Part shown: positions 243 through 33,589 of the stretch, piece by piece
Layout of the letters: every line of letters begins with the position of its first letter
Position numbering within the stretch: position 1 is the first letter of the stretch
DNA from: Azolla caroliniana
Taxonomy: Eukaryota > Plantae > Polypodiophyta
DNA length: 64,000 nt
Assembly (NCBI GenBank): GCA_043228905.1
Contig: JBHGNT010000005.1
Location: 24,428,001 to 24,492,000, forward strand
Direction: 5' to 3'
Notes under the pieces: generated by a model
Told to the model about the DNA's origin: nothing
Seen by the model: the letters and a program-made list of their open reading frames with translations, nothing else
The model's database searches: none
Made by a program: the position numbers and the translations under genes

Positions 243-672
243 TGTTAGATGGTCAAATGCCAAGAAGGTTAGATTATTCAACAAAAGGGATGGGAGGTGT
301 TCAAAAGGTAGATATAGGTAAGAGGGATCCAATAGCAAAATTTCTCTGTGGGTCGAGCCAATTGTGAGAATTAGGCTTGAGATCAAGTGGTGGAGGTTGT
401 AACACATATTACGTTGTGCAACATGGATTGCCATTGAAATACATTTGCTCGTCAAGTATGCTTCTTATGACTCAATTACGGTGAATGAACGTGATTTGAA
501 TGTGCCGGTTGAAGTTTACACGAAAGTGCCACGATACAGTGACATAAAATACATAGTTAGTGAGGATTGAACCTGTAACCTCACAACAAAAATATATCAT
601 GCTCAATCATTTTAATATAAGAATGTATTTGTATGTAATGTATTTGATCTAGAAATACTCTTTAGTCCTCTA

Positions 673-752
673 GAAAGTTCTAGAACTAGAGGGTTCTAGA
701 ACATCCTTCAGAATATTCTAATGAATGTACTTCAACTCACGGTATAAATGCT
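673..752 (+). promoter_or_regulatory. Heat-shock-element cluster and TATA box in N1 5' LTR (second copy ~2456-2545)
   Basis: GAAagTTCtaGAA (673-685), TTCtaGAA and GAAtaTTC match alternating nGAAn units, with TATAAAT ~25 nt downstream. Confidence 0.55.
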
Positions 753-1392
753 TGTAATAAGTTCCTAGCCTCATCACTTCCAGTTCCATGTTTGTAGCCT
801 TATCGGTCGTAACCTTGTCATCCATGCTTTGTCATAGTCCATGGTTAGTGTGTCCATGATAGTTTGAATCTCTTCTGCTGGAAGCATCACATGTATTCTT
901 CATCACCCTTGCTTCCAGAGTTACCATCGTCATCGTCCTTGTTTCTAGTGTTACCATCATCAACATCCTAAGTTGGTTTTAAAGACATAGTTGTCACAGT
1001 TGTTGTTACTTCTAGAGATGCCATCGTCACCATAGTCACAATCGTTACTTCTGGAGACGCTTCCTCATCATCATCGTCTTCATTGCCTTGTCTTCGACGT
1101 CATCATTTTCAGCACCTCTTGTTGTCTTTATCAACGCTACTTTGCCCAACCTTCATTGTCGTCAACACTACCTTGCATGGTCTTTCATTATCATCATTGT
1201 TTCACCCTCTTCATTGTCGTTGTCATCATCTACCTCAATTCTGGGGGGGTTATGATCGCTCACCTTCTTGGTGGGGATTGCGTCAGCTACCAGCTTATGC
1301 TACCATTTGTGTTGCGTTTTGGGTCAACCTCGACTATTTATCCTTTCATGATCGAAAACTCTGAGTTGAACGTTTCGTGTACACTCCTTCGC

Positions 1393-2303
1393 TTGTTGGT
1401 GTTCAAGTTCCCAATGAGAACCGCACATGGTCACTTAGGCTTGTTCAAGTTCGAGTTCCCAGCGAGGATCGCACATGGTCGCTCGTGCCTGTTGGTGTTC
1501 ATGTTCCCGACGAGGACCGCATGTGGTCTCTCACGCCCGTTGGTGTTCGTGTTCCCAGTGAGTATCGTACATGGTTGCTCATGCTCGTTGGTGTCGTTGG
1601 TGTTTCGGTCTCCGATGAGGATCATGCATGGTCGCTCACGCCCGTTGGTGTTCATGTTCCTGACGAGGATCACACGTGGTCGATCATGCCTGTTGGCGTT
1701 CGTGATCCTGGTGAGGACTGTACATGTTCAGGCACGCTCGTTGGTGTCGTTGGTGTTCCAGTCTCCGATGAGTATCGTGCATGGTCACTCATGCTCGTTG
1801 GTGTTCGTGTTCCCGACGAGGACCGCACGTGCTCGCTCACTCCCGTTGGTGTTCGTGTTCCCGGTGAGGACTGTACATGGTCGCTCATGCTTGTTGGTGT
1901 CGTTGGGTTCCAATCTCCGGTGAGGATCGCGCATGGTCGCTCATGCCCGTTGGTGTTCGTGTTTTCGGCGAGGACCGCATGTGGTCGCTCATACCCGTTG
2001 GTGTTCGTGTTCTCAGTGAGGACCGTACATGGTCACTCGCGCCTGTTGGTGTTCGTGTTCCTAGTGAGGATCGTACATGGTCGCTCATGTTCGTTTGTGT
2101 TCATATCTCCTATGAGGTCTGCACATGGTTGCTCACGCCCATCGGTGTTCTAGTTCCCGGTGAGGACCGTACATGGTCGCTCACGTCCGTTGGTGTTCGT
2201 GTCTCTAGTGAGGTCCACACATGGTTGCTCACGCCCATTGGTGTTCCAGTTCTCGGTAAAGACCGTACATGGTTGCTCACGTCCGTTGGTGTTCCAGTCT
2301 CCA
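1393..2303. repeat. Tandem minisatellite, 48-bp unit (~18 copies) with 57-bp variants
   Basis: Consensus approx. GTTGGTGTTCGTGTTCCCGGTGAGGACCGTACATGGTCGCTCACGCCC. Units with an extra GTTGGTGTC occur at 1587, 1740 and 1893. Confidence 0.95.
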
Positions 2304-5300
2304 CTCACCCCTACACTACGCTTTCAAAAAAGGCGGCCATAAAGGGGAGGATAATGTCACAATACAATGACATAAAAATACATAGTTGGTGAGGACTGAA
2401 CCTGCAACCTCATGTCAACAAGATGTCATGCTCGACCATCTTGATATGAGCACGTAGAAAGTTTTAGAACGAGAAGGTTCTAGAGGGTTCTAGAATATTC
2501 TCTAGAATATCCTAATGCATGTACTTAAGCTCATAGTATAAATACTTGTAACCTCCTTGGTTTCAAAAGAGCATGAACGTATCCATGATTTGTCATAAGT
2601 TCAAGTAACTTTTTGGACAACTTCCTCAACTATGAGCTTATTGGCTCATCAAAGTCTCTCTTCTTCACAAGGGGGGTGGATTTGAAATACAAATATGGCT
2701 CGGTGTCCTCACAGAAGATGATGGTGTACCAAACGGTATCATTGCAAATTGGATGGTGGTAAAAAGTACATGCATTTTTTTCATTAAACAATTATCATGG
2801 AATGATGATATTCAAGTTCATGTCATGGCCCTTTGCTCTATTACTCGTGGGGTCTAAACATTGTGGTTCTTCTTGGTTTGACAAACAATTAAATAATTGA
2901 ATTTGCAACACTCGCATTCTTAGGCTCTGGTCATTGGCCCTTTTTCAATCAATTGTGAACCTCCACACGGATTTGCCGCAATTAGAACCTTCCTCTCCAT
3001 TAGAGCATCTAGTGGAGCATGTTGGCAATTGGATGCATGACGTGTATTTCGGGTAAATATGACACATGTGTCCAACAATATAAATCCCTAAAACTACAAA
3101 ATAGTTAAGCAAGGGTTATATAGGGTATTTCACAAACATGAAAACTTGGGATCAAGATGCCTATTAATTACTTGAAGTATGATGTGATTGGAGCATAATG
3201 TCAAAGGCCATGTCCAAAATGAAGTTATGTGAGTAAAGGAGTGGTTTTATGAGAGAGGCTCGTTTGCAACCTCTCCCTCTCATCCATATCCAAACCTTAG
3301 TTTTGGGTTTGAAAGATTGTTTTGTGATGGTATTCCTTAAGTCATTATATTAAGTGAAAGCAACCCTAATGTTAAACTCACTTTCAGATGAACTAGAACT
3401 GTTTCCTATTCTCCCCCTTGTATCTTTCCATTTCATTAACGAAAACTTAAGTTGATTGATTATATGTGCATTTTCTATCATTGAGCCTGGGATACTTGTA
3501 GGAAAGTGGGGGGATTGGCAAAATAATAAGAGAGCTTAAATTTGCTTAGGTGACGAGGGATGATGGTTGTTACGAGCATAATTGTAACCGTAGTTGTGGG
3601 CTAAATTGCAAGGATGAAGGGTGATGATTGAGTTAGATGCCAACACTCGAAAAGAGAACCCACATCTTGAATCATTGGGATTAGATGCTCCCTCTTGTGC
3701 AATGCTTGCCTTGCCTTGTGTTAGACTCCACAAGAGAGTTAACCAGTGTAGTTTACATATAGATATTTGTAAGTGGGTTGGTTTGGTTTTATTTCAGTCT
3801 TTATTGCAAAATCGCTACTTAACTAGTTGTTGCACGTATAATTTTTGTCTATGGTTTGGTTTGATTTTATTCGAGTCTTTATCAACTATATAGTACTTAA
3901 AATTTTGGGGATTTTTTTTGAGGTATTTATGAAATATATTAATTAACTTATTACATATAATAAGTTAATATGAATACGAAGCTTTAACTTTATTAATTTC
4001 TTTCTTGAAAGGTTGAAAATTGAGTGTACAATCACCAATATTTTAATTTCAATTGAAACCAACCTATGAATTTGTGCTTAACGTTTTGTAGATCACCTGA
4101 ACTGTTTGGTTTGAATTGAAAAAATCATCAAACAGTTTGGTTTGAATAGATTCATGTTTGGTCTAGTTTAAGTTTTAGAAAATTGAAGTGATTTGGTTTG
4201 AATTAGTTTGAGTTTGACACTTCCAAATTGTTGTCGATTAGGACACAAGAGGATCCACAAGATCACTTGTGGTCAACTTACGATAAAAAACTTAGAGATT
4301 TCCACAATGGACATTTGGTTCCATACAACCCTAAAGAGTTACCCCATGGATATCTCACCACAATAGAACTCATTGAATTTCATCATGTGGAGGTCACCGT
4401 GAGTTCTATAGTGTAGAGTTGCACTACTCAATTTGATGGTTCACACCTCTAAAGCCTTCCTTTTCATATTACCAACACACACAAACCTCGAGTACATGCT
4501 CTAGGTTAAAAAGAAAACTCATCGATTTTCTAGGATTGCATGGAAAGCAAGTAAAGATTTCAAAAGACACATAGAGAGCAGAATTGTGAGTTCTCAATAT
4601 GGAAAATATAAAGATTTTCTTTGGAAAATAGATGCATCACATCTTCATGTCGTCCTCCACCAATGAGTTTATTTTGCATTGCCGATATATTAGAGTTTGG
4701 GAAAGATATCAAGGTTCACATTTCAAACATTATATTTCATATGTTGCACCAAACAACAAAACCATATTCATCTTTGTATGAGGAAGTTGGATACACCAAT
4801 ACATGCTAGAGCTCATCGCATTCTCTGCCATCCATGCCATTGCTTCAATACAACGTAACACATGTTCTCTTCGATGTGAGACAACACATTGGGGCATAAC
4901 TGAGGAGACTCTTTGAGTATGTATATTTTTCTTTGAACAAGTGTCGGAGTCTGAGTACCATATGTACTTCACTACAATGTGCTACAATTGATCATTCTCC
5001 TATTTGCTTTCCATACATTGTCAATACATACCATTCCATGCACACATTCCTTTCACAATCACAATGTGCACACAAGATTGTAACGTTCATTAGTAAAACT
5101 TTTGAAAATCAAGAGTCACTACTCAATTCCCCACCTTTTATGTAAAAATGATCAAATGTTGGTCCCATATTTCATATTTGAGGCCCGCGGATGATCAATA
5201 AAATCTATATTAGGTTGTATTCTTAAAGCTCCCCTCTTCTTACATATTTTCTAATGTCCTAAACACAAACGTTTGCACACACAAACATACAAATACAAGC

Positions 5301-7488: not shown

Positions 7489-8628
7489 TCAATCGGTCAT
7501 ATCGCGCTCTAAGCATGCCCTTGGCGTGACAACCATGCTACAACATACCACTCGGTCGAACCGAGGCGGAGAAGGCAAAGATGGAAGTTGTTTCCACACA
7601 TATTCTCCCTCGCTTAATTCGCACATACAAACTGGGTAACCGCTGTACACGCATTCGCTATATACATAGAAAGCGGTACCTGAGCCCACGCACTTGAGGC
7701 TAGCTTGCATGTGATCGTCCGCGTTTTCGAAGTGTGAAAAGAGATGGGGCGGCATGGTGCTCACCTCATGCCAATCCATGGTGACCTCGTCGACCTTGAA
7801 CACTTTGAGGCACTCTTGGGAGTGGTTAGGGCGGCATACTACGGCAGCATGAAGGCGGCCACCGCACGCCAGTATGAAAAGGGACACGAGGTTCGGGACA
7901 CTTAGGCTCAAGACTTTGCTCCATGTTTTCGTGTGGGTGTCGAAGGACGCAACATCCCCGTAGTAGTCGGCCACATAGAACTTGTGTCCGAGGACCGCGG
8001 ACGACATCCAGTGGCACGAGACCGTGTCTCGGAAGCCGGCGGACGGGAGGGGCTGGCATGCCTCCCACTCGTGGGACGCCGACCTATACATCTCGACCGA
8101 ACGTTGGTCGCCACCATCGAGGACGCCCCCGACCACGACCAATGAGAAGGAGGAGGCCGAGGAGTGCGGGTCTCCGATGGCACCCATTAGGGCATAGCAG
8201 CGTGTGGATGAAGCAGATGTGGTCTCTTTCCAGGACATCTTGGTAGGGTTTGTGGCGAAGCAGACTTTGGAGCCGGAGAATGCGAAGAAAAGGCCATGGC
8301 AGCCGGTGAGCGAGGTGCGGTTGAAATCCGGTGGACGGAGGGTAGGGACACGGAACCAGCGGCCGAGGGTGGGATCGAATGCGAAGGCCACACTCCTGTT
8401 GTGGATTAGCTCATTGATGCCCCACAGGCAGAACCAAGGCTTCCTGCCAGAAGGTAGGTGGGCCAATTGAGATGAGAAAGAGTGGGAGGAGATGATGGAC
8501 CTCCATCGCTTGCAGACGGATGCGGATCGGATGGCCGTGCTCACCGGCAGCTGAAGCAAGATCTTCTCTTGAAGATCGCCGCTCAGGAGCTCCCATTGAT
8601 TCTTCATTGTGGGTGGCTCATCAGACAT
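7489..8628 (-). CDS. F-box/kelch-repeat protein, intronless, ~379 aa (resembles the Arabidopsis At3g24760 type)
   Basis: N-terminal F-box WELLSGDLQEKILLQLP...SVCKRWRSII. PWF...AFAFDP..RWF, LVVVGG, VEMY...WE and FD...TWS are kelch-like blades. ATG at 8628 lies inside the ORF called 7489-8706. Confidence 0.9.
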   Translation of the reverse strand: MSDEPPTMKNQWELLSGDLQEKILLQLPVSTAIRSASVCKRWRSIISSHSFSSQLAHLPSGRKPWFCLWGINELIHNRSVAFAFDPTLGRWFRVPTLRPPDFNRTSLTGCHGLFFAFSGSKVCFATNPTKMSWKETTSASSTRCYALMGAIGDPHSSASSFSLVVVGGVLDGGDQRSVEMYRSASHEWEACQPLPSAGFRDTVSCHWMSSAVLGHKFYVADYYGDVASFDTHTKTWSKVLSLSVPNLVSLFILACGGRLHAAVVCRPNHSQECLKVFKVDEVTMDWHEVSTMPPHLFSHFENADDHMQASLKCVGSGTAFYVYSECVYSGYPVCMCELSEGEYVWKQLPSLPSPPRFDRVVCCSMVVTPRACLERDMTD

Positions 8629-8747
8629 GGCGAGTAAGAAGGGTTTGGGATTGGGGGAAGGAGGAAGGAGGAAGGAGGAACCCCCCAAAAAAACACGAGA
8701 AATCACAGAAATAATGAAGAAGTCATCTCTCTTTATCTCTATCTCTC

Positions 8748-8751
<4 letters not shown>

Positions 8752-17000: not shown

Positions 17001-17696
17001 CAGAAATGGCATGGTGATGTCTGGGATGCAGTCCCTCAGCACCTTGTTCATCGCATTCACCATGTGCGCCACTGAGTTTGTCCCTCCTTGCGGCAGGGTA
17101 CACATCCGCACTAAGCCGAGAGGTGTCTGCATCGTCGTGACATCCCTGCTCTCCTCGGCTAGTTGGAACTGGTTGTACCTGTTACCGATTAGGAACACGG
17201 TCTACAGTCAGTCCTTCGACCTAGACCTCAAAGTGACTGCGTTGCAACGAATGGTACCGCCGTACCGTAATATGTAATGGGATACCTCCCCGTATCCCAG
17301 TAGCGTATAAGGGAGACAACTACAACCGAACTCCTTAGACAATGCACTAGTAACAACACTCGCACTCACGCCTACGCTCTTACGATTACAATACGCCACC
17401 AAGAATCATAGAAACACAGTAGGTTAACCACAGATATGCACAGGGATTAGAGAAGATAGAACTCTATTAAGATAACGCTCTATGCATCAAAATTTACATG
17501 CTACCTCTTATAGAGGATTTCTGCCCTTTATATACATAGGGTCTTTTAGCCGTTCACGCTTCCCGCGTGAACCGTTACATGCGTTTGGTTTTTACTATAT
17601 TCTATATTTCTGCGCTCCTATCCGTCGGTTACTATTCCAACGGACAACACCTGGCACACATGTGGGACAGTGCCATGGCATGTCGGATCCACCCCT

Positions 17697-20330: not shown

Positions 20331-22926
20331 GGGTGAGACTCGTGGCTAGTGGGCGAGGACTGCCGGCTATGGCGAACTCGAGCTCTGTGGTGGGATGGAG
20401 AAGAGGGTGAGTGAGGGTAGTGATGAGAGCAATGAGAGTTAGAAGGTTGGTTTCTGTACTGTGTAGAAAACCTTCTATTTTCTTCTTTTTGTGGCCTAGG
20501 GTTCATTGGTCGGTGATCCATCGTGGTGCCGTGTGTTCTTGGCGTAGAAGTTTGTGCATGCCTTAAGTCCTTTTAATAGCGTCGCTACCTTCTCTCTTTT
20601 TTTATTTTTTTATTTTATTTTTTTCATTTTGTAACGGTTACATACAATATTATTTTTACTCTATAGTACAAGTAGGTTTCTCTACTTACTCCGCGGATTC
20701 CCCGACTTTGTCATGTCCGGTGGGGAACGGGTTAGGTGACGTAGGTCCCAGGTAAGGTTTAAGGCGAAATCCATTCACCTTTTGTCGTAACACTTCCCCG
20801 GCCAAAGTGCCAAGTTGAAACGTGCCATGTTCCGCTCCCACTATCCAATACGGGCCCGTCCAACGGAATTTTAATTTTCCAACTATCCCATGCGTGTTTG
20901 AAAAACTAATACCGCTTTCCCAACCGTAAAATCCTTTTCACACGCATGTGATGTCGGTCCACGAATGCTTTGCGCCGCCGATGTTCCTGTTCCAATATGG
21001 CCATACTGCGTACCCTTGTTTCGCCTAGTTCTAGCAGTTGTTGTAGCCGTATTTGTTCGGATTTGCCCTCTAGCAGCCGGGCTCATACTTGAATCCGCAA
21101 ACTGGGTACCTGGAATTCGACGGGCATCACGGCCTCCGGCCCAAATGCTAGCCTAAAAGGCGTGGATTGTATGCTGGTCTTATAGCTGGTTCGATACGCC
21201 CATAATACACTGTGCAATTTGGTATCCCAATCTGTTCTATTCTCATTGACTATCTTTTTGAGGATAGTTTGTAATGTTTTGTTTGTGGCTTCGACCAAGC
21301 CATTTGCCTGTGGGTAATACGACGTACTCTTTTTGTGAACCACAACGTAGTGTTGGGTTAGCTCGCTAATGATTGTATTCAGAAAGTGACTCCCCTGGTC
21401 ACTAATGAGCTCAATAGGGCAGCCGAAATGACACTAGATGTGTTCGTAAAGGAATTTCGTCGTGACTGCCGCAATATTTTCGCGTAGTGGTTTCGCTTCT
21501 ACCCACTTGGTGCAGTAATCCGTAGCCACCAGGATATACTTATTGTCTGTTCGAGCAACTGTTAGGGTAAAGGGTCCCACAAAATCCAACCCCCACTTTC
21601 GGAAAGGATCCAACGGCAACACCGGTTGATGTGGCATTCTCGCGACCTCCGTGGGCTGGCCCAGCCGTTAGCATAAATCGCATTGTTTGCAATATTCATA
21701 CGCATCCTTTTGCGTAGTCAGCCACCAAAGTCCTGCTTGCCAGATTTTCCGGGCCGTAACATCGCATGCGTAATGTCCTCCCGTTGTACCACAGTGGGCT
21801 TCTCGTAAAACCGCAACCTTCTCATCCTGCCGTATTCTGTGCCTCCAGATGTCGTCACTACCTTTGTGATATAGGACGTCGTCGACTAAACATAAATTAT
21901 GACTCCGTACGACCAACCATTTTTTCTCGTCCGTCCTTAATTGGGGTGGCGGTAACCCCGTGGTCAGAAAGTAGGTCATTTCCATCAACCACCGATCCAG
22001 GAAAGTCTTTTCTGTTCTTTCTGCTAAAGTTGCTATACGCAGAATGTCCGCGTCCGGAAAGTCGTCGTCATCTTTTTGAGCCGTTTCTCCATTATCTAGT
22101 CTGCTCAAGAAATCCGCTACCATGTGTTGCATCCCCGGTTGGTGCTTAATTACAAAGTCGAATTCTAGGAGCAATAACATCCATCTGGCCAATTTTCCCG
22201 TCAGTGCCTGTTTCCCCACCAGATATAGCAATGCCGTATGATCCACATGAAACGTGAATTTCAACCCTAGCAAATAGTGCCAGAATTTATTGATGTTGTA
22301 GATCATACCCAACGCTTCACGTTCCGTTGTGGAGTAGTTACGCTGTCGTGAAGATTTCTGGCTATAGTGTGAAACCGGGGGTGGAATGGGCAAGTCGGTG
22401 GTGTGCAACATGTGCACATGTATACTAGGATAGGGTGTATAGAAAGAGAGGGGAAATTTTTGTCCCACATTGTAAGGTCCTTCCCTCCTTGGGCTATAAA
22501 AGGAAGGGAGGGGTCACTTATGAAGGGGTTGCCTATTTTGTGCGAGTAAGGTATACCACTTAGTCTAGGGTTCTCCCTCTTCCCATTTCGTTTTAGGGTT
22601 AGGGTTTCGGTTAGGGTTTTCTTCTTGGGTTTCCCTTTAGGGTTTTCGGATAGTCATTTTGGTGCGGCGATGGCGGCCACCACTGTTGTAACCGTTCGTT
22701 GTTTTAACATAACTTGTTGAACATCTTGCCTCCGCGGATCTCTCCTTCGATGTCGTGGTCTTATTCTTTCCTCTTCTCCTCTTGAGCTAAGCCTCCATAT
22801 CGTGTCCTATTCTTTCTCCTCCACTCCCTAGTCCAAGACCCCCGCGGTCCCGCCCCTTCTACATGCACGCGCGTAACAACGCGACATCTTTGGTGAACCC
22901 GACGTGAAGAAGGGCGGCAAGGGAGC

Positions 22927-23802
22927 ATGGAGATGGAAGAAGACTTGGACTTCGAGGAGATGATGGCAAAAATCGTGATGGAAGCCGGACGGAAGATGGC
23001 GAAGCGAGATGCGGCTCAACAAGCCGTCGAAAGGGTGGTTGATCGAGTCAGCCGATTCAACGGGGACGATGTCCCGAGGTTCTTGGAAGCGTACGAGGCC
23101 GAGATGGCGAAAGGGGGCGTGGACGAGGAGATGTGGCTAGAGTATTTTCCTCGAGTGGCGGCCGCATCGGTGCACAAGGAGGTCAAGGAGCTACGAGAAG
23201 CTCACGGGTCGTGGGTGTCCTTGAAGGTAGCCCTATTGGAAGCGTGCGGATACGCGAAACCGGAGTGGGTATGCCGGCAACCCGTTGGGGAGCGGTCGGC
23301 AACAACGTGGCTCGCGAGCGGCAGAGAAGAGAGAGTGGCGAGTGCGTACGCACTACCACCGGAAGAGAGCTCAACGCAAAACGGTTCGGAGGAGCTCGAC
23401 CTAGAAGCGCTAATACGAGAGGCATGCGAGCTTGTGAAGGCGAAAATCGGAGCTGAAGAAGGGCTTATTATGGAGTCGGGCCGGAGGCGATCGGAGGATA
23501 CGGAGGAAGAAGCCTCCCTAAGCGTAGAAGACGGGGCCTATACGGAGGCCAGAAGAGCGTACGACGGCGACATGGGAGAGGGTGCGGAGCAAGCGACCCT
23601 CTTGCCTTGCGGAGAAGGGACGACCATGGAGGCCGATAACTACGGATTCGGGACATGGCGGCCCGAAACATCGAGTGGGGAGGAGACAAGCGGCAGTGCC
23701 GGGTCCTTACCCACACCGGTTCTAGAGGCTTCGACGGTCGGCCCGAGAGCCGGTGTGAGACCTAGAGTGACGGACGGTGGCGGCGGCAAGGCGGGCAACT
23801 GA
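22927..23802 (+). CDS. Gag-like protein of G4 with an acidic repetitive tail
   Basis: AVERVVDRVSRFNGDDVPRFLEAY resembles the G2 gag segment AIEAIVNTIGRFDGKDAT; it starts just after the PBS. Confidence 0.65.
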   Translation: MEMEEDLDFEEMMAKIVMEAGRKMAKRDAAQQAVERVVDRVSRFNGDDVPRFLEAYEAEMAKGGVDEEMWLEYFPRVAAASVHKEVKELREAHGSWVSLKVALLEACGYAKPEWVCRQPVGERSATTWLASGREERVASAYALPPEESSTQNGSEELDLEALIREACELVKAKIGAEEGLIMESGRRRSEDTEEEASLSVEDGAYTEARRAYDGDMGEGAEQATLLPCGEGTTMEADNYGFGTWRPETSSGEETSGSAGSLPTPVLEASTVGPRAGVRPRVTDGGGGKAGN

Positions 23803-24448
23803 GACGACGGCATGGGAGAGATGGTGGCAAGCGTAATCGAGGCTTGCGGAATCGGAGATGGCGTAGCCGCGGACAACGACGACCGAACGGAAGCGGCTAC
23901 TGACACAACGAGTGGCGGTGCCGGGTCCTTACCCACACCGGTCCTAGAGGCTCCGGCGGCCGGCCCGAGTGCCGGCGTGAGACCTAGAGCGACGGGCGGT
24001 GGTGTCAGGAATAGTACTAAAACAGAGATTGAATTAGTACTAAGAAGAGTAGTACTATTAGTACTAAGAGGACGGGACTGCGTAAGATTCCCGAGAGAGA
24101 GGAAGTGAGAAGAGGAGAGAGAGAGAGAGAGGGAAATAGGATGATGACAGCAGCTCTTATATTATATGAAAGATAAGTACAAATCGACTAAGAGGCTTAA
24201 GACTGGTGTTGAACCAATTTGGTTCAACATAATGCTTAGTGCCTTCTTTTATAGTGTTCTCAGGAATAATCCTGAAGCTTCTAGAATGTTCCAGAGAAAT
24301 CTGGAATATACATTACTTTCTTATAATAAAACATAAATGAAAATAATATTCTATGAATTACAATAGATGGTGAGATGGTTAAGAGCTCGACCCATATACC
24401 ATAAGGTCATGGGTTCGAGTCTTGCCATCTCATGACACTATCTCCCCC

Positions 24449-27400
24449 TTAAAGACGACGAGTGGAACGAGTCAGCGCTACTTGCGGACCGGGTTTGTCC
24501 GGATACTTTCGGTGGAAATCAGCAAGAAGATCTTGTGCATTGGCAACATTCTCGACGGGTTCCCAAGTACGTTCGCTCGGACTATAACCGAGCCAATCGA
24601 CCAAGTAATAGAGTTTGTTGCGAACAAGTTTGGAATCGAGGATGGCAGCAACTTCGTACTCCGGGCCGGCGTCCAACTCCAGTGGGGGCGGCGGTGGTGT
24701 CACGCGATCGGGAATGGTGTTTGCTTGATAGGGTTCAAGAAGAGAACAATGGAAAACCGGATGTATCTGAAGCTGCGGAGGGAGATCAAGGCGGAAGGTG
24801 ACATCATTAATCTTCCCCGTAATACGGAAAGGACCGAGTCGTCGATAATCCAACTTGTCGCACGGTCGAGTAGTCTTGATGTGACGACGTAAGAGCCATA
24901 CTCGATCTCCGATGGCAAAAGAGGAGGGAATCCGATGACGATCCGCATAAGTCTTCTGTGTGTGTTGAGCATGACGAAGGTGAGTAGAGAGATCCATCTG
25001 GATCTTGCGTAGCCTCTCCAAATGATCCTCGGCACGAGGGTTGGTAGGTAGCTCCGGAGTGTCGATCACCGACCAGCGAGGATGGAAACCGGTATAAGCG
25101 AAAAATGGGGAGACCCGAGTCGAGGAGTGAATAGCATTATTATACGCAAACTCTGCAAAGTGGAGAATCTCGGCCCAATCGTCCTGTTGATAACTCAGGA
25201 AACACCGGAGATATTGCTCCAGCGTTTGGTTTGTTCGTTCCGCCTGTCCGTCGGTCTGAGGATGGTAGCCGGAGGAGAGGTTGCAGGAGACCTTGAGCAT
25301 CTTGAAGAGATGCTGCCAAAATTTGGAGACAAATTGCGGGCCTCGGTCACTGATAATACTGTCTGGGAGGCCATGATGCCGAAAAACCTCACGCATAACA
25401 AGAGCGGCGGTTTCCTCGCTAGTGATGGCTTTAGTACATGGCACAAAATGTGCCATCTTCGTATATCGATCGACGACGGTTAGGATAGCATCGAACCCTT
25501 TCGAGACCGGCAGATCTGTGATAAAATCAAGACAAATAGACTGCCATGGCTTACTTGGAATTGGTAAAGGTTCCAACAAGCCATATGGATGGTGTCGTGG
25601 CATCTTTGCTCGGCAGCAAGCATCACAGGTCCGAACGTAGTCGTCGACAAAACGGCGCATGTGGGGCCACCAAAAAGATCGCTGCACTAGCTCCAACGTC
25701 TTAGTACTACCGAAATGTCCCGCCGTATGGGTGTCGTGACAATGTTGGACAATTTGAAGGCGACAGGAGCAATCGGGGACATATACACGCTTTTTAAAGA
25801 ATAACAAACCATCATGATATTCGAATTGTCGGTAGTCAATACCTGGTTGTTGAGACTGAGAACAGGATGCCCGAGAAGTATCAATGTGCGCCAGGATGTC
25901 TTGAGCAAAACTATCCGTCTTCAAGGTTGCACGTATGCCATCAGTAATCCGTGAATCCATCGGGGTGTGAAAAATCCGCGTCGTGTGCAATCGTGTTGGT
26001 CCCAAGATTACTTGCTTTTGATTATCAAATGTTGCTTCACCAGGACGAGGTGCAAGATATGAACGTCGTGATAGTGCATCTGCTTTTCCTTGCTGCTTCC
26101 CCGGTCGATATGTGATTTTGAAGTCGAAACGCGTGAGGAATTGCGCCCACCGAGCTTGCCGTCGATTTAGTACGCGAGCGTTCTGAAAATAAGCAAGATT
26201 TTTATGATCGCTGAAGACAATGACCTGATGTGGAGAGCCCTCTAAGAAATGCCGCCATTGTACAAATGAATCCACGATGGCTAATAACTCCTTGTCATGT
26301 ATTTCGTAGTTGATTTCTGCGACATCGAATTTGCGCGAATGGAAAGCCACCGGATGCAACTCTTCTTTATCACCTTGTTGAGAAAGGATGCTACCGAGGG
26401 CGAAATCTGATGCGTCGGCCTCCATGATGAATGGTTTGCTTGTATCCACATGAGCTAGAATCGGTGCTGATGTAAAGGCTTTCTTAAGATGCCGAAAAGC
26501 CATATCTGCTTCAATGGACCAAAGAAATGCTTGGCCCTTCTTCGTAAGTTGTGTGAGAGGTAAAATAATCTTCGAGTAATCCTGTATAAACTTACGGTAG
26601 AAGTTAGCAAAACCTAGAAAACATTGTACATCTCGTACCGACCGTGGAATTTGCCACTCTAGTACAGTTTGGATCTTAGCTGGATCCATGGCGATGCCCT
26701 TTGAGGAGATGACGTAGCCTAGAAATTCCACTTGCTTGCAGTCAAAGCTACATTTTTCTAGCTTGGCATAAAGACCATTCTCGCGGAGTCGCTTTAGTAC
26801 TAATAGTACATGAGAGTCGTGCTCTTCCTGGGTCTTCGAATAAATCAACAGATCATCCAGATAAATGATCAAACAGATATCCAAGAGGTCTCTGAATATA
26901 TCATTTGCCATGTGTTGGAAGACTGCGGGTGCATTGGTTAGGCCAAACGGCATAACAGTATACTCAAAATGCCCATACCGCGTGCGAAAAGCGGTCTTCC
27001 ACTCATCTCCCGGTCGGATCCGCACGAGATTATACGCTCCGCGTAGGTCGATTTTAGTAAAAAACTTGGCACCATTAACTCGCTCTAAAAGACTTGATAT
27101 AAGAGGAAGTGCATACCTATTCCGGATGGTGACTTTATTTAATCCGCGGTAATCAACGACAAGACGAAGTGAGCCATCTTTCTTCTTGACAAAGAAGATG
27201 GGTGCACCGGCCGGAGATTTCGAATGACGGATGAACCCGCTTGCCAAGTTCTCCTCTATGTAGGCTCGAAGGACTTCTAACTCGGTGGGTGACAGGTTGT
27301 AAATTGGTCCCCATGGTGGCTCGGTTCCTGGTTGTAAATCGATGGGACAGTCATAGGGACGGTGATGAGGAAGGGTACCGGCTTTTACCTTGTCAAATAC

Positions 27401-28021
27401 ATCGGCATAGGGATGATATTTTGCCGGAAGTTGTACTGAGGAGTCCTTCTTAATAGTGCTGGAAGGATGTACTGATATGGAAAATAGGAACATTGCCTCC
27501 TTGGGTCCTTCTTCGCGTAGTTGATGGAGTGAAATGGTCGAAACTCGGCGAGTTGATTCTTGGGGTGGTCGATATCGGACTTCTCTTGTTCTCCAATCTA
27601 TGGCTGGATTATGTAACTCAAGCCAAGGTAATCCTAGGACAATGGGATGCTCTGGACTACTAATTATATTAAATGATATTATACACACAAAACTACCTAG
27701 GACAACTTGAATGGGTTCTGATTCTTCTACAATATTCCCGGAAGCAATGGGACGACCATCAATGACCACTACAGATGCGGGACAAGGAAGTTTTCTTAAG
27801 GATATCTGAGAAGCTTGGGCAAAATTTCGATCCATGAAACAGGAATTAGCTCCGGAATCTAAAAGTGCTAGGACGGGTACTGGGGGAGTACTTTTAGTAC
27901 TAACAATGACTTGGGCTAGGAACACATTGCTAACTTGCTTGGAAGGAATGGAACCACTAATGGGCTGTACAGATCTAGGGCTGCTGTCCAACCAAATGGC
28001 TCCTATTTTGGCTGGACTCAA
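24449..28021 (-). CDS. G5 Pol: protease, RT, RNase H, integrase, chromodomain; probably made by -1 frameshift
   Basis: [27 protein letters not shown]...[24 protein letters not shown], and chromodomain YEVAAILDS...YLVDWLGY...TWEP. The ORF opens at TTG, not ATG. Confidence 0.95.
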
Positions 28022-29176
28022 TCGTTTAACTCTTCATCTAATTGACTAAGGATTTCAAATTTATTTGAGATACTTGGGCTATTAGTACTATGAATACTAT
28101 CTGACACTCTATTAGTACTATTACTACTATCAGACACTCCGAAGGGAAGAATTGACTCAGGTTTAGTACAGGCGACAATTTGATTTACCTGTCTTCTTGG
28201 CCTATGGGGACAATTGATGGCGATATGTCCTGGTCCACCGCAATAAAGGCATAATCGATTGGCACGTCGTCGTTGCTTTTCTTCTTCCGATAACGGGCCG
28301 CGTCGACGCATGGTATCGATCTCCATCGGTGTCGAAGTATTTGCTTGAGGTATGTCTCGTGCAAACGGTTTAGCCGCGACTGCGGCGTAAGTGGGCTCTG
28401 GCCTAGAGCGTGGTATCTGTAATTGACGTTCTGAACGCCGTTCAAAAAAGGCGGTTGTCACATCGAACTGCTCGACTGATTGCCTCCGTAAGAGACTTTG
28501 GTTCTTTGGGGAAAGTTAGAAGTAGATCTTTGACATCGTTTCGCAAGCCATAGCGAAACTGCTCCATTAGTGCTTGATCATCCCAGGGTATATCTGAAGC
28601 AAGTAGGCGGAAATCCGCCGCGTAGGCAGAGGCTGGACGATCGCCTTGACGCAATCGCCGGATCTTGTTGATCGCCGTCCTGATGCTGTCGGTGTCTCCA
28701 AAGCAGGCTTTAAACTCACCAATAAAATCTTCAAAGTTATTAAGCAAGGGCGATTGTTTTTCTAGAAGCGGAGCGAACCATGCCAAGGCTGATCCGCTAA
28801 GTAGCGTGCCTATTAGGCCGACTCGAGATGCATCAGTGGGATATCGGGAAGGATGCATCTGGATGACTAAGCGTACCTGATTAAGGAATCCCCGAAATTG
28901 CGAACGCGTTCCATCAAATTTCACAGGAAGTCCAATCTTGGGCTCTTTATGAAATCCTTGGGGACTGGATCCTTGTTGTTGCAACGCTGCTTCGAGTTGT
29001 TGTACCCGTAACGCTAACTCCCCATGTTGTTGTTGCGTTTGTTGTTTTTCTAGAGCGATTTGTTGCAGATCCCCTATCAGCCGTTGGTTTTCTTGTTCCA
29101 AGGCAACAAACTTTTCTTTTAGGCACTGTAGCTCGGAGAAAACGGATTGGTATTCTTGGGCGCTAACAGTAGCCAT
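28018..29176 (-). CDS. G5 Gag in two frames (28442-29176 and 28018-28461)
   Basis: Coiled-coil N-terminus, KFDG..QFRGF, LRQG...YAADF capsid motif, PMEID and CCHC knuckle [15 protein letters not shown] +1 frame break lies in a T run at ~28445. Confidence 0.85.
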
Positions 29177-29489
29177 AGTATAGGGGAAAGGGTAGGAGGA
29201 TGAGGGAGAGTGACAAGTAGGCTAGAGGGAAAAATTGGTTCAAACTGTCAGGAATAGTACTAAAACAGAGATTGAATTAGTACTAAGAAGAGTAGTACTA
29301 TTAGTACTAAGAGGACGGGACTGCGTAAGATTCCCGAGAGAGAGGAAGTGAGAAGAGGAGAGAGAGAGAGAGAGGGAAATAGGATGATGACAGCAGCTCT
29401 TATATTATATGAAAGATAAGTACAAATCGACTAAGAGGCTTAAGACTGGTGTTGAACCAATTTGGTTCAACATAATGCTTAGTGCCTTC

Positions 29490-29539
29490 TTTTATAGTGT
29501 TCTCAGGAATAATCCTGAAGCTTCTAGAATGTTCCAGAG
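29490..29539 (-). promoter_or_regulatory. G5 LTR promoter: heat-shock element (29517-29539) ~20 nt upstream of TATAAAA (29490-29496); copy at 24247-24296
   Basis: GAAgcTTCtaGAAtgTTCcaGAG gives four perfect alternating nGAAn units plus one imperfect unit. Confidence 0.75.
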
Positions 29540-29605
29540 AAATCTGGAATATACATTACTTTCTTATAATAAAACATAAATGAAAATAATATTCTATGAA
29601 TTACA

Positions 29606-29675
29606 ATAGATGGTGAGATGGTTAAGAGCTCGACCCATATACCATAAGGTCATGGGTTCGAGTCTTGCCATCTCA
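29606..29675 (+). other. tRNA-like A/B-box cassette and hairpin at the edge of the G5 LTR (copy at 24363-24432); not a functional tRNA
   Basis: TGGTGAGATGGTTAAGAGC ... AGGTC ATGGG TTCGAGT C with tRNA-like spacing; the anticodon arm does not pair. Confidence 0.6.
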
Positions 29676-32184
29676 TGACAGGTGGTGGCAGCAAGGCGGC
29701 CTACCATGGCGATGAAGAGAACGAGGAAGAGATAGCCACGGACCACGGCGTCTGAACGAAGGTGGCTACGATCATGGCATCGGCGAGTAACGGTATCGGG
29801 ACTTTTCCCACACCTATTCTAGAGACTTCGGCAGTCGACCCCGAGAGCCCATGTGAGACCGGAGAGATGGAAGGTGGCGGTAGCAAAGCAGACGATTGAA
29901 ACGACGACGAGGAAGGTCATAGTGGACGGAGGCAAGACCTCTCGACACCGAGACCAGAGACTACGGCGGTTGCGCTCGAATGCCAACATAAGACCGGAGA
30001 GAAGGGCGGTGGCCTGGAGGAGGTGTGGCCCGGAGCGAACACGTACGAAGATGAGGACGCGAGGCCCGGAACGGGCATATACAAGAGGACCGACGGAGAG
30101 GTCGGGAGCGGCAAAGAGGAGAGAGTCGGGAACCGACCTGACCGGAAGATGAACCGGTCGATAATCCGACATGACCGGAAGACGACGCGGAAGAAGATTG
30201 GAGCGGGGTCCGGTCAACCGGGCCCGAACCGAAGAAGAGCCGACAAGGCTGGATTTGTTCGGACAAACATGTACCGGCCGGTTACGATTACGGAAGGGAG
30301 CCGACCAAACCAGGACTCGATCGGCCGAGACCGATCCGGGCAAACGGGCCAAACACTCGGTGGGAGCCGGTGAGCACAAGAAGGAGGCCAAGTATGCACA
30401 AGGAGTACGACTCGGTGGGAGGCCAAGAGTGAGAGGGACCCTCCTCACCTATTCTTGAGACTTTGGCGGCTGCGGTTCGACGTAAGACCAAAGAGACGGC
30501 AGAAGGCGGTGAGGAGTCGGAGACCGGAACGGACGAGGCTACCGGAACGGGTACCCGGTGCGTGAAGGCGGACGGGCACGGCCAAGACGGCAAGCCGGAG
30601 TCAAAAGGGGCTAAGGCAAGAAAGGACGAAGAGACCGACGCGGAGGTCGGGTCTACGACGGATGAGGCGCGTAAAACGGAGCATGCACTACGGCCAGCGA
30701 AGGGCCAAGAAGTAAGCATGCACCCGGAAGAGCGGCAACGGTGGACCGGTCGAGCCTTTGAGAGACAAGCACGTGGCGAGAGACAAAGCCGTAAGGTGCC
30801 GAGATCGGCGGATGGGTGGCGAGAGCGAAGGATGGTGCGCAGAGAACAACGAGGTACACACCGGGAAGAGAAAACGCAGCGGCTTCTCGGAGGACATACA
30901 AGGCCAAACGGGCCAAGAGGGCGCAAGTCGAGGCGAGGTGGTAACGAGAGCCTCGAGGGACACCGACATGGAGGTCGGGATGACGGTACGCTCTACGGCG
31001 AGAGAGCACGACGGGCAAAGGAGAGGCAAGGAACGCGGAATGGGGTCGCCTAAGGGCCAAAGAATGAGCACATATTCGGGGAACAACATCGGCGCACGAG
31101 AAGAGCCTATGGAAGGCAAACGCGGAGCAGGAAGAGTCGACACGCCGAGGTGTTCGGCATGTGGAGACGATAAAACCAAAGGAGGAACATATGCGGCACG
31201 AAAAGGGCGGAATCCGGAGTACGATCGGAGAGTTCAGGAGCGCACCCGGAGGACATACGAGCCTTTGCGAGGAATGCGCGCGGCGAGAGACGGAGCGGTG
31301 AGGTGCCGGTATCGACGGATGATCGACGAGCATGAAAGGCTATGTCTTGAGAACCGGAGGAGGTGCGTGAAGAGCAACGGGCTACGCACTGGGAAGAGGA
31401 AGCACGGCTTCCCGGAAGGCATGCGAGGCCAAGCGGGCCAAGAGGACGAGAGTCGGGATGAAGCGGTAACGGGAGTTGCGAAGGACATTGACATGGTGGT
31501 CGGGATGACGGTATGCTCTACGGCGAGAGAGCACGACGAGCAAGGGAGAAGCCAGGAGCGCGTAATGGGGTCACGTAAGGACCGAAGAACGAGCACGCAT
31601 TCGATGGACGACAACGATGCACGAAAAGTGCCTACGGAAGCCGAGTGCAGAACGAAGGGAGTCGGTACGAGGTGTTCGGGGCGAGGAGAAGGTCGAGCCG
31701 GAGGTGGAACACATGCGATACGCGAGGAGCGGCACCCGACGAGCAATCGAAGTAATCGGGGGACTGACCGGAGGACATGCGCGGTGAGCGAAGGAAGGGA
31801 GACCGGATCGGCAACGGTGTTCGGGATGGCCGGTCAAAGAAGAAGGTGCATGCGCCGGACATGGCGGATCGGATGGAGCCAACGGATCGAGGAAACGCGG
31901 TGGACGTGGTGGATCGGATGGAGTCGGCGGGTCGGGGCCGGCAAGACGGATCGGCGCCAGCAAGGGACTGGCAAGGCGGTTGGGTGTCGGTAAGGCGAAA
32001 GACCCGGTTGATCACCATCGCCGAAATCTCTCACCCTTTTCCTTTCTTGGCACATACCGGTGGATGTGCGGTTTAGTGGGGGTGGATGTCGTGAAGATTT
32101 TCGGCTATAGTGTGAAACCGGGGTGGAATGGGCAAGTCGGTGGTGTGCAACATGTGCACATGTATACTAGGATAGGGTGTATAG

Positions 32185-33131
32185 TAGGGATCGGCAACGG
32201 TTCGGTTTAGGCTTAGCCGGTTTGGCCTGATTCAAGCCAAACCGGCTAAGCCTAAACCGTTTACAGGATCTCAAACCTGAGCCGAGCCGAGCCGAGCCGG
32301 TTCACAAACCGGTTTAGGCTAAACCGGTTTATGCTAAACCGGTTTGTGAACCGGCTTGGTAAACGGCTTGTAAACCGGTTTCCAAACCGGCTTGGAAACC
32401 GGTTTAGAAACCTCTGTCTCTCTCTCTCTCTCTCTCTCTCCCTATCTCCCTCTCTCTCTCAGATGATCCCTCCCACTCTCTCTCACTTCTGTGGTCTCGA
32501 CTCTCTCTCCCTCTCCCTCTCTCTCCCCTCTATGTAAATCCTCTCTCTCTCCCCTCTATGTAGTTCCTCTCTCTCTCTCTCTCTCCCCTCTGTGTAGTCT
32601 CTCTGTCTCTCCCCTCTATGTAGTTCCTCTCTCTCTCTCTCTCTCTCCTTATATGTTGTCTCCCTCCCTCTCTCTCTCTCTCCTCGTTTGTGTAGTCTCT
32701 CTCTCTCTCTCTCCTTATATGTTGTCTCCCTCCCTCTCTCTCTCTCTCCTCGTTTGTGTACTCTCTCTCTCTCTCTCTCTCTCCTTATATGTTGTCTCCC
32801 TCCCTCTCTCTCTCTCTCTCCTTATATGTTGTCTCCCTCCCTCTGTCTCTCTCTCCTCCTCTATGTAGTTCTCCCTCCCTTTCTCTCTCTCTTTCCCCTT
32901 GTCTGTTGTCTCTCTCCCCCTCTCTAAAGTTTATAAACGGCTTAAACGGTTTAGCCGGCTTAGCCGGCTTGAGCCGGTTTGGCGAGGCTCAAGCCAAGCC
33001 GAGCCGAGCTCAAACCGTTAAGGCAAGTTCAAGCCTAAACCGAGCCGAGCCGAGCCGCTAAGCCGCTAAGCCGTTTTCAAGCCGGCTAAGCCAAACGGTT
33101 TAGGCTTGAGCCAAGCCGTTGCCGATCCCTA
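32185..33131. mobile_element. Non-autonomous hAT element (MITE), 947 bp, inserted in the G4 3' LTR
   Basis: 16-bp TIR TAGGGATCGGCAACGG / CCGTTGCCGATCCCTA; 8-bp TSD GTGTATAG; many subterminal AAACCGG, AAACGG and GAGCC repeats; absent from the 5' LTR. Confidence 0.95.
32412..32925. repeat. CT-rich compound micro/minisatellite inside the hAT MITE
   Basis: (CT)n runs alternate with CCCCTCTATGTAG, CCTTATATGTTG and CCTCGTTTGTGTA spacers. Confidence 0.9.
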
Positions 33132-33589
33132 GTGTATAGAAAGAGAGGGGAAATTTTTGTCCCACATTGTAAGGTCCCTCCCTCCTTGGGCTATAAAAGG
33201 AAGGGAGGGGTCACTTATGAAGGGGTTGCCTATTTTGTGCGAGTAAGGTATACCACTTAGTCTAGGGTTCTCCCTCTTCCCATTTCGTTTTAGGGTTAGG
33301 GTTTCGGTTAGGGTTTTCTTCTTGGGTTTCCCTTTAGGGTTTTCGGATAGTCATTTTGGTGCGGCGATGGCGGCCACCACTGTTGTAACCGTTCGTTGTT
33401 TTAACATAACTTGTTGAACATCTTGCCTCCGCAGATCTCTCCTTCGATGTCGTGGTCTTATTCTTTCCTCTTCTCCTCTTGAGCTAAGCCTCCATATCGT
33501 GTCCTATTCTTTCTCCTCCACTCCCTAGTCCAAGACCCCCGCGGTCCCGCCCCTTCTACACGCACGCGCGTAACAACGCGACAACGCTC

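What the first reader, a model, noticed from the sequence alone, without database searches (positions are those of the whole stretch)
29606..29680. tRNA-like Pol III-type cassette that also folds as a long hairpin at the edge of a self-priming retrotransposon LTR
Seen: antisense to the element and 5 nt from the U3 terminus lies TGGTGAGATGGTTAAGAGC (D-arm/A-box-like), then AGGTC-ATGGG-TTCGAGT-C (variable loop and T-arm/B-box-like) at tRNA spacing. The cloverleaf fails, but 62 nt (29614-29675; copy 24371-24432) form a ~26-bp imperfect hairpin: TGAGATGG/CCATCTCA, CTCGA/TCGAG, CCCAT/ATGGG, ACC/GGT around an ATAA loop. Known: Cassandra LTRs carry 5S rRNA Pol III promoters, and TFIIIC-bound B boxes can act as chromatin barriers. 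Inference: an element that seems not to need tRNA for priming keeps a tRNA mimic in its LTR, perhaps as an insulator for the HSE promoter, an antisense Pol III RNA source or a small-RNA hairpin. A similar cassette in N1 suggests a family-level system that I do not recognise as described.
Basis: partly seen in the sequence, partly recalled or inferred. Interest (0 to 1): 0.8.

Follow-up and report, generated by a model that had tools for sequence, protein, structure and literature searches.

The report
Backwards tRNA promoter in retrotransposon ends
Several plant jumping genes carry, back to front at the outer edge of their terminal repeats, the two promoter boxes of a tRNA gene without the tRNA fold, and these boxes likely bind the host's tRNA-gene factor to shield the element's own promoter, whereas the long hairpin seen in this copy is not shared by the other lineages.

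Summary
Both observations are real, but they are two different things. The element is a young Ty3/gypsy chromovirus (identical 435-bp LTRs, self-priming site). The antisense A/B-box cassette scores 27.7 bits on an independent tRNA profile, best in the window, 0 of 300 shuffles; ARAGORN and Rfam find no tRNA. The same cassette, with the same strand, position and tRNA spacing, lies in N1 and in 3 of 6 related LTRs fetched by protein homology. Across five lineages 43 of 45 tRNA-invariant bases are kept but only 20 of 45 stem pairs, which points to a promoter, not an RNA fold. The hairpin (26 bp, z about -7.5) is confined to this family. Its outer and innermost stems are broken without compensation in most relatives laid, while the A box there is closer to consensus. 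Best reading: a selected TFIIIC/Pol III landing site, likely a chromatin boundary beside the heat-shock/TATA promoter; binding is untested. tRNA-like LTRs are known (Helenus, sense, non-autonomous), and the scan noted similar cassettes in fungal LTRs before. I did not find this antisense form in autonomous plant elements in print.

The parts
29246..29680 (-). 5' LTR (435 bp) of the chromovirus; U3 terminus at 29680
   Evidence: 100% identical to 24003-24437; followed on the - strand by PBS and gag
24003..24437 (-). 3' LTR (435 bp); carries the second copy of cassette and hairpin (24368-24432)
29611..29621 (+). A-box-like motif (tRNA positions 8-19), antisense to the element; this copy has G at the normally invariant A14
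   Evidence: relatives mostly have T at 29616 and A at 29617
29647..29665 (+). variable-loop AGGTC plus B-box-like motif (tRNA positions 44-62; B box 29655-29665), G18 to T54 = 37 nt
   Evidence: no variant at 4% or more listed in 29645-29680 in four runs
29614..29675 (.). 26-bp imperfect hairpin; the core 29624-29666 (B-box region paired with an inverted near-copy) is family-wide, the outer stem and ACC/GGT are not
29560..29610 (+). AT-rich stretch with CAA (29604-29606) upstream of the A box, where TFIIIB would load (inferred)
   Evidence: sequence; plant tRNA upstream features from PMC11700998 passages
29517..29534 (-). heat-shock-element-like array (alternating GAA/TTC units; motif recalled)
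29491..29496 (-). TATA box of the element's Pol II promoter (predicted)
   Evidence: 33 nt before the self-primer; 28-32 nt in L026, L027, L077 by the same count
29452..29463 (-). predicted self-primer at the RNA 5' end, complementary to the PBS
29232..29243 (-). self-priming-type PBS, 2 nt after the 5' LTR
   Evidence: criterion of PMC6317226
28018..29221 (-). gag, in two overlapping frames (capsid 28442-29221; zinc knuckle 28018-28515)
24449..28033 (-). pol: protease, RT, RNase H, integrase, chromodomain with aromatic residues at the HP1 cage positions
24438..24450 (-). polypurine tract
29681..29685 (+). target-site duplication GGTGG (other copy 23998-24002)
2393..2447 (-). cassette in the right LTR of the non-autonomous element N1 (antisense to N1; A58 lost)
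564..618 (-). cassette in the left LTR of N1 (G19 lost)

Best explanation
The first 77 bases of this chromovirus LTR hold, on the opposite strand, the A and B boxes of a tRNA gene without its fold, and they likely act as a DNA landing site for TFIIIC (perhaps with TFIIIB and Pol III) that shields the element's heat-shock/TATA promoter from flanking heterochromatin. Shown: the boxes, their tRNA spacing, antisense strand and place at the U3 edge, here, in N1 and in three other lineages; loss of the stems; position between host DNA and the HSE-like array; an HP1-like chromodomain. Inferred: origin from a captured tRNA or tRNA-derived SINE head; retention by selection; TFIIIC binding; a boundary role, useful because such integrases are thought to target heterochromatin. 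The hairpin is best read as a later, family-limited inverted near-copy of the B-box region (template switching, inferred), lengthened in this copy by two changes that spoil the A box.
For: Profile score 27.7 bits, 0/300 shuffles, best in the window. L026 26.7, L077 23.1, L028 18.7, N1 12.5 and 8.9 bits, all antisense, B-box end 16-38 nt from the U3 end, G18-T54 36-37 nt; the three loci came from a protein search, not from the motif. Outside LTRs only one site (two homologous copies in L026) reached 18.7 bits in 638 kb of 111 loci. Five lineages: 43/45 invariant bases but 20/45 stem pairs counting G-U, against 8.0 of 9 in 389 real tRNAs; mean pairwise identity 0.92 (variable loop), 0.68 (B box), 0.77 (A-box 3' half) against 0.30-0.37 around them, at 51-72% integrase identity. 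Within the family no variant at 4% or more in 29645-29680 in four runs of four organisms (about 4.4 expected from the LTR-wide rate, P about 0.013). Loose ends show A boxes such as TAGTCTAATGG and TAGCTTAATGG. 3-unit HSE-like arrays in 4 of 5 cassette lineages and 0 of 3 without. tDNA barriers work in either orientation in fission yeast (PMC2040200, passages).
Against: No binding, chromatin or RNA data. The cassette is missing in L027 and L029, doubtful in L031 (6.2 bits, 7/300), and not seen by eye in SM-Tcn1 or the first 400 nt of the RLG1 transcript, so it is dispensable. Single box bases are lost in this copy (A14), N1 (A58 or G19) and L077 (G53); the 5' half of the A box is not conserved between lineages (0.32). 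The identity and invariant counts are inflated because rows were anchored on AGGT..TTC and decayed cassettes would be scored absent. Short contigs and the 80% cut-off hide variants, and depth over the A box is a tenth of that over the B box. Fixed spacing and a kept AGGTC are more than TFIIIC is known to need (recalled). The B box holds a CpG and LTRs are usually methylated (recalled). In fission yeast TFIIIC alone did not suffice at the centromeric tDNA barrier. The tree needs at least two gains or losses. L077 has the cassette but no HSE array.
Confidence: 0.45

Rival explanations
1. Passenger relic: a tRNA or SINE head was captured into U3 once or several times (for example by read-through of a tRNA primer in a tRNA-primed ancestor, which would give this antisense order) and now has no function.
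For: Absent from 2-3 of 6 related LTRs and from SM-Tcn1 by eye; patchy on the tree; box bases lost in several copies; separate captures of different tRNAs would explain unrelated middles and exact spacing; in this family the LTR end falls at tRNA position 77 (counted).
Against: Neutral decay would hit boxes and stems alike, yet 43/45 invariant bases stand beside stems at chance level (20/45); same strand and place in all five lineages; B-box side invariant within the family.
Confidence: 0.2
2. The cassette is an active Pol III promoter whose product matters: outward RNA from the 5' LTR into host DNA and antisense RNA from the 3' LTR across the PPT and integrase end would feed self-limiting small RNAs or open the flank.
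For: Complete A and B boxes, AT-rich upstream DNA and a CAA; family A box near consensus.
Against: No terminator in the element: the first T4 is 138 nt out in host DNA for one copy and 1369 nt away for the other, so the RNA would differ from copy to copy. Antisense RNA would invite silencing.
Confidence: 0.13
3. RNA-level tRNA docking: the genomic RNA carries the complement of tRNA T and D arms in U3 and binds host tRNA for packaging, dimerisation or strand transfer, like the 3' half of the Ty3 bipartite primer site.
For: The orientation is the one needed; Ty3 uses U3 sequence that pairs with the T-psi-C and D arms of tRNAi-Met (PMC5371799, passages).
Against: The element has a self-priming PBS; T-stem and anticodon-arm bases, which would give pairing to one tRNA, differ between lineages (identity 0.30-0.37); in this family the hairpin core covers the T-arm complement.
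Confidence: 0.12
4. The hairpin is the functional unit (small-RNA precursor, or an RNA/DNA structure beside the PPT that tunes plus-strand priming or masks the tRNA complement), and the boxes are incidental.
For: z about -7.5; the core of about 14-15 bp persists in four organisms, its listed variants keep G-U pairs or add a pair (29639 A>G, 35-66%); it begins 5 nt after the PPT in the RNA.
Against: Not present in N1, L026, L028, L077; outer stem broken (29616 A>T in 73-100%, 29617 G>A in 44-100% of depth) and ACC/GGT broken (29642), with no compensating change listed; the conserved core is shorter than a 21-nt duplex.
Confidence: 0.07
5. The boxes serve as landing pads for elements that integrate upstream of Pol III genes, as proposed for a fungal lineage in an earlier scan note.
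Against: No insertion upstream of the A box in the two LTRs here, in N1 or in L026, L028, L077; it does not explain why the carrier would keep the boxes.
Confidence: 0.03

Closest known systems
Helenus / TRIMp3 (Kojima 2024, PMC10886601; parts 1-4 of 6 and supplement passages read)
   Same: tRNA-like sequence inside an LTR with conserved A and B boxes and mostly no functional tRNA; one family in a non-seed plant (Selaginella); the paper also says 'not a few LTRs' in Repbase hold part of a tRNA.
   Different: Helenus are 311-1263-bp non-autonomous elements with tRNA PBS, and Helenus-1_SMo has the boxes in sense, proposed to transcribe the element. Here the carrier is a 5.7-kb autonomous self-priming chromovirus with its own TATA promoter, and the boxes are antisense at the U3 edge, so they cannot make the genomic RNA.
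Cassandra TRIM (as described in PMC10886601)
   Same: Pol III internal promoter from a small-RNA gene in plant LTRs.
   Different: 5S-derived, sense, non-autonomous, transcribes the element.
tDNA and B-box (TFIIIC) heterochromatin barriers of S. pombe and S. cerevisiae (PMC2040200 passages; PMC4502379 abstract and start of introduction)
   Same: A/B boxes or B boxes at a boundary between silent chromatin and a Pol II unit; activity independent of orientation.
   Different: Host loci in yeasts, shown by experiment; here a single degenerate cassette carried by a mobile element in a plant, function untested.
Ty3 bipartite primer-binding site (PMC5371799 passages)
   Same: Sequence complementary to tRNA T and D arms in U3 of a Ty3/gypsy element.
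   Different: Ty3 pairs with one primer tRNA; here the element looks self-priming and only tRNA-invariant positions are kept, in whole-gene spacing.
Tcn1 clade / Tf1-Sushi self-priming chromoviruses (PMC6317226 and PMC2864245 passages; SM-Tcn1 supplement)
   Same: Domain order, chromodomain with aromatic cage, self-priming PBS, about 5.7 kb, CAACACCAGT after the primer as in SM-Tcn1.
   Different: No tRNA-like U3 cassette is mentioned in the passages seen; SM-Tcn1 lacks it by eye.

Membership tests
tRNA gene | cloverleaf / covariance-model score | tested here: not met
   ARAGORN 0; no tRNA hit at E<=10 for the query, L026, L077, N1 right LTR; 4 of 9 stem pairs in the query, three of them G-U
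Pol III type 2 (tRNA-type) promoter | A box and B box at tRNA spacing | tested here: met
   27.7 bits, G18-T54 37 nt; A14 is G in this copy but A in 44-100% of depth in relatives
Pol III type 2 (tRNA-type) promoter | downstream oligo-T terminator | tested here: not met
   first T4 138 and 1369 nt downstream, neither inside the LTR
Pol III type 2 (tRNA-type) promoter | TFIIIC/Pol III binding and transcription | not testable with these tools
   needs ChIP or in vitro transcription
Helenus / TRIMp3 | tRNA-like sequence with conserved boxes in the LTR | tested here: met
Helenus / TRIMp3 | short non-autonomous element without coding capacity | tested here: not met
   5678-bp element with gag and an open 1194-codon pol
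Helenus / TRIMp3 | tRNA-type PBS and boxes oriented to transcribe the element | tested here: not met
   self-priming PBS; boxes antisense, sense in Helenus-1_SMo
tRNA-derived SINE insertion | head plus body, tail and own target-site duplication | tested here: not met
   the LTR ends 15 nt after the B box; no tail or duplication seen; no SINE library was available
Tcn1 chromovirus | Ty3/gypsy domain order with C-terminal chromodomain and aromatic cage | tested here: met
   Pfam; Y, W, Y align with the cage positions of CBX1, E 5e-10
Tcn1 chromovirus | self-priming PBS (10 nt or more, 0-5 nt after the 5' LTR, complementary to the LTR) | tested here: met
   12 nt, 2 nt after the LTR; a prediction, not a priming assay
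Tcn1 chromovirus | phylogenetic placement with reference Tcn1 elements | not tested
   no named Tcn1 reference was in the trees
TFIIIC/tDNA chromatin barrier | blocks heterochromatin spread in a box-dependent way | not testable with these tools
   needs a reporter assay
miRNA-like hairpin | conserved duplex of about 21 bp or more giving discrete small RNAs | tested here: inconclusive
   26 bp in this copy, about 14-15 bp family-wide; no small-RNA data

The most novel reading that the evidence does not exclude
Autonomous, heterochromatin-seeking chromoviruses of non-seed plants carry their own portable TFIIIC/Pol III boundary: a stripped-down antisense tRNA promoter at the LTR edge, kept across deeply diverged lineages together with heat-shock elements, that lets each new copy stay inducible inside silent chromatin.
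Probability: 0.3. Interest if true: 0.75.

Novelty: new variant of a known kind. Interest (0 to 1): 0.5.

Why it matters
Elements that integrate into heterochromatin must still be transcribed. A built-in tRNA-promoter boundary at the LTR edge would be a simple answer, would give a testable case of TFIIIC barrier activity in plants, and would spread many Pol III boxes through these genomes. Even without that function, it extends tRNA-derived LTRs from short non-autonomous Helenus to autonomous elements, in an orientation that cannot drive the element's RNA.

Tried and rejected
No whole genome is held for this window, so copies could not be surveyed directly. ARAGORN on the window and 60 loci: no tRNA. 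Rfam at E<=10 on four stretches: no tRNA or relevant family. Sequencing runs: no RNA holder listed; runs X19 and X20 are probably DNA, so nothing is said about expression. Viral contigs gave only distant (33-44%) relatives or one short unrelated match; the HSE-TATA-primer pattern gave 30 loci that I took for chance matches and did not follow. Prokaryote genomes gave 2 loci of no use. Cluster look-up gave no organism names. Monophyly of cassette carriers is neither shown nor rejected (p-AU 0.054). Rejected: functional tRNA (stems at chance); hairpin as a lineage-wide feature; covariation in the hairpin (none listed). A recalled report of an antisense tRNA-like stretch in HIV-1 U3-R was not found and is not used. 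Literature searches (listings, plus passages of PMC9033089, PMC7466625, PMC3648361) showed no description of this cassette; the library lacks most subscription papers and Repbase reports, and the FASTA and main table supplements of PMC6317226 could not be read, so prior description is not excluded.

Full report
1. The element. The finding lies in the 5' LTR of a Ty3/gypsy element on the minus strand. Its LTRs (24003-24437, 29246-29680) are 435 bp and identical, flanked by GGTGG. It encodes gag and a 1194-codon pol with protease, RT, RNase H, integrase and a chromodomain whose Y, W and Y align with the HP1 cage. Twelve bases 2 nt after the 5' LTR are complementary to LTR positions 218-229, 33 nt after a TATAAA. 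This meets the self-priming criterion of Neumann et al. (PMC6317226, passages), who predict self-priming for most Tcn1 elements of mosses and club mosses. I call it Tcn1-like; no named reference was in my trees. The host is probably a moss or other non-seed plant (inference from that paper and from an unchecked scan note).

2. The observation. The hairpin has 26 pairs, z about -7.5, 0 of 200 shuffles. ARAGORN and Rfam find no tRNA. To test the boxes alone I built a profile of tRNA positions 8-15, the D-loop GG and 44-62 from 371 phage and bacterial tRNAs (of 499 called; long, duplicate or unanchored ones dropped; weighted by anticodon; part of them fetched by a consensus pattern; no plant tRNAs). 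The cassette scores 27.7 bits, within the range of real tRNAs (median 37.9, 5th percentile 16.3), above 300 of 300 LTR shuffles, and is the best site in the window; the next unrelated site has 15.0.

3. Other lineages. A protein-based scan of 3 of 64 parts of the metagenome collection gave 79 loci. I read the DNA after the integrase in 29 of them and one genome contig; six (L026, L027, L028, L029, L031, L077; 51-72% identity) have an LTR of this type. Three of the six carry the cassette (26.7, 23.1, 18.7 bits, each 0/300), two do not, and L031 is doubtful (6.2 bits, 7/300). N1 in the window has it in both LTRs (12.5 and 8.9 bits). All are antisense, with the B-box end 16-38 nt from the U3 terminus and G18-T54 at 36-37 nt. 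Five other LTRs of the window lack it, and by eye so do SM-Tcn1 and the first 400 nt of the Physcomitrium RLG1 transcript. In 638 kb of 111 loci only one non-LTR site reached 18.7 bits. Between five lineages the boxes and AGGTC are 68-92% alike and the bases around them 30-37%; 43 of 45 invariant bases are kept but only 20 of 45 T-stem and anticodon-stem pairs, near chance and far below real tRNAs (8.0 of 9). These counts are inflated by anchoring on the motif and by scoring decayed cassettes as absent, but stems at chance beside intact boxes are hard to get by neutral decay. This is the pattern of a DNA promoter, as in SINE heads and Helenus, not of an RNA mimic. On a 10-row tree the carriers form two groups (query with L026; L028 with L077), needing at least two gains or losses; one origin is not rejected (p-AU 0.054). 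Three-unit HSE-like arrays follow the cassette in 4 of 5 carrier lineages and in 0 of 3 others.

4. The hairpin. The first 100 nt of U3 do not fold significantly in N1, L026, L028 or L077 (z -0.6 to -1.9). Contigs of five runs from five coded organisms were laid on the LTR (summed contig depth, not copy number). At 29616 most carry T (73-100% of depth) and at 29617 A (44-100%), with no change listed at the partners 29672-29673: the outer stem is special to this copy or subfamily, and the two bases that make it also spoil the A box. Loose ends show A boxes close to consensus. 29642 is mostly A or G, breaking ACC/GGT. The core (29624-29639 with 29651-29666) persists; its variants keep G-U pairs or add one pair. 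No two-sided change was listed. The 5' arm of the core is a near reverse complement of the B-box region, so I infer a local inverted duplication in this family, later lengthened. No variant at 4% or more was listed in 29645-29680, against about 4.4 expected (P about 0.013); part of this stretch is also the integrase end, and short contigs hide variants.

5. Mechanism. The best reading (0.45) is a DNA landing site for TFIIIC, perhaps with TFIIIB on the AT-rich stretch and Pol III. It sits between flanking chromatin and the HSE/TATA promoter, 75-190 bp away, in an element whose chromodomain is of the kind thought to target heterochromatin (PMC7466625 passage). Yeast tDNA and B-box barriers are the model and work in either orientation. 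Binding and boundary function are inferred, not shown. A defined Pol III RNA is less likely because the element has no terminator. Docking of a host tRNA on U3, as in Ty3, fits the orientation but not the loss of tRNA-specific bases or the self-priming site. A passenger relic remains possible (0.2), since several relatives do without the cassette.

6. Known and new. Helenus and Cassandra show small-RNA-derived Pol III promoters in LTRs, and Kojima notes that not a few Repbase LTRs hold part of a tRNA. Those elements are short, non-autonomous and, in the plant example seen, sense. This element fails the Helenus test on size, coding capacity, PBS and orientation. Seven searches showed no description of an antisense A/B-box cassette in autonomous Tcn1-like LTRs; the library is incomplete. 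Two unchecked scan notes report tRNA boxes in fungal LTRs, one read as a landing pad and one as a passenger, and L018 has sense cassettes, so such captures recur.

7. Verdict. Observation confirmed; interpretation partly supported. New variant of a known kind, interest 0.5. The cross-lineage promoter cassette is the finding; the long hairpin is a family-limited addition.

Noticed in passing
L018:4833-4893 and 5000-5060: A distant chromovirus (36-39% integrase identity; lineage not determined) has two tRNA-like A/B-box cassettes (37.9 and 30.6 bits) in sense orientation in what looks like its 3' LTR U3, without an ARAGORN call; such cassettes may recur in chromovirus LTRs.
   Followed up: partly
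L026:1053 and 6377 (- strand): A 19.5-20.3-bit tRNA-profile hit antisense within pol in both tandem copies; possibly chance.
   Followed up: no
SM-Tcn1 (PMC2864245 supplement): By eye a 14-nt stretch 2 nt after the 5' LTR is complementary to the LTR just before CAACACCAGT, so it has a self-priming site although the paper found none.
   Followed up: partly
window 527-2551+: N1, a non-autonomous element with 48-nt tandem repeats inside and LTRs only 69% alike; its PPT region resembles that of L028 and L077 more than the query's, so it may belong to that lineage.
   Followed up: partly
window 32185-33131: About 950-bp insertion with 16-nt terminal inverted repeats and an 8-bp duplication (GTGTATAG) inside the right LTR of the host element 22373-33583; looks like a non-autonomous hAT-type element, with a CT-rich core.
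   Followed up: partly
window 28018-29221: gag is split over two frames (overlap 28442-28515) although the LTRs are identical and pol is open: a fresh frameshift, an assembly error or recoding.
   Followed up: no
window 17180-57342: Nest of LTR elements: pairs at 17180/42474, 22373/32115-33583, 33590/38881, 44736/48563, 51949/56727; the last three are Copia. None of their LTRs has the cassette.
   Followed up: partly
window 7489-8748 (-): F-box/kelch host gene.
   Followed up: no
L026, L027, L028, L029, L031, L077 and window 29445-29454: CAACACCAGT just after the predicted self-primer is kept in all these LTRs, which otherwise barely align.
   Followed up: partly
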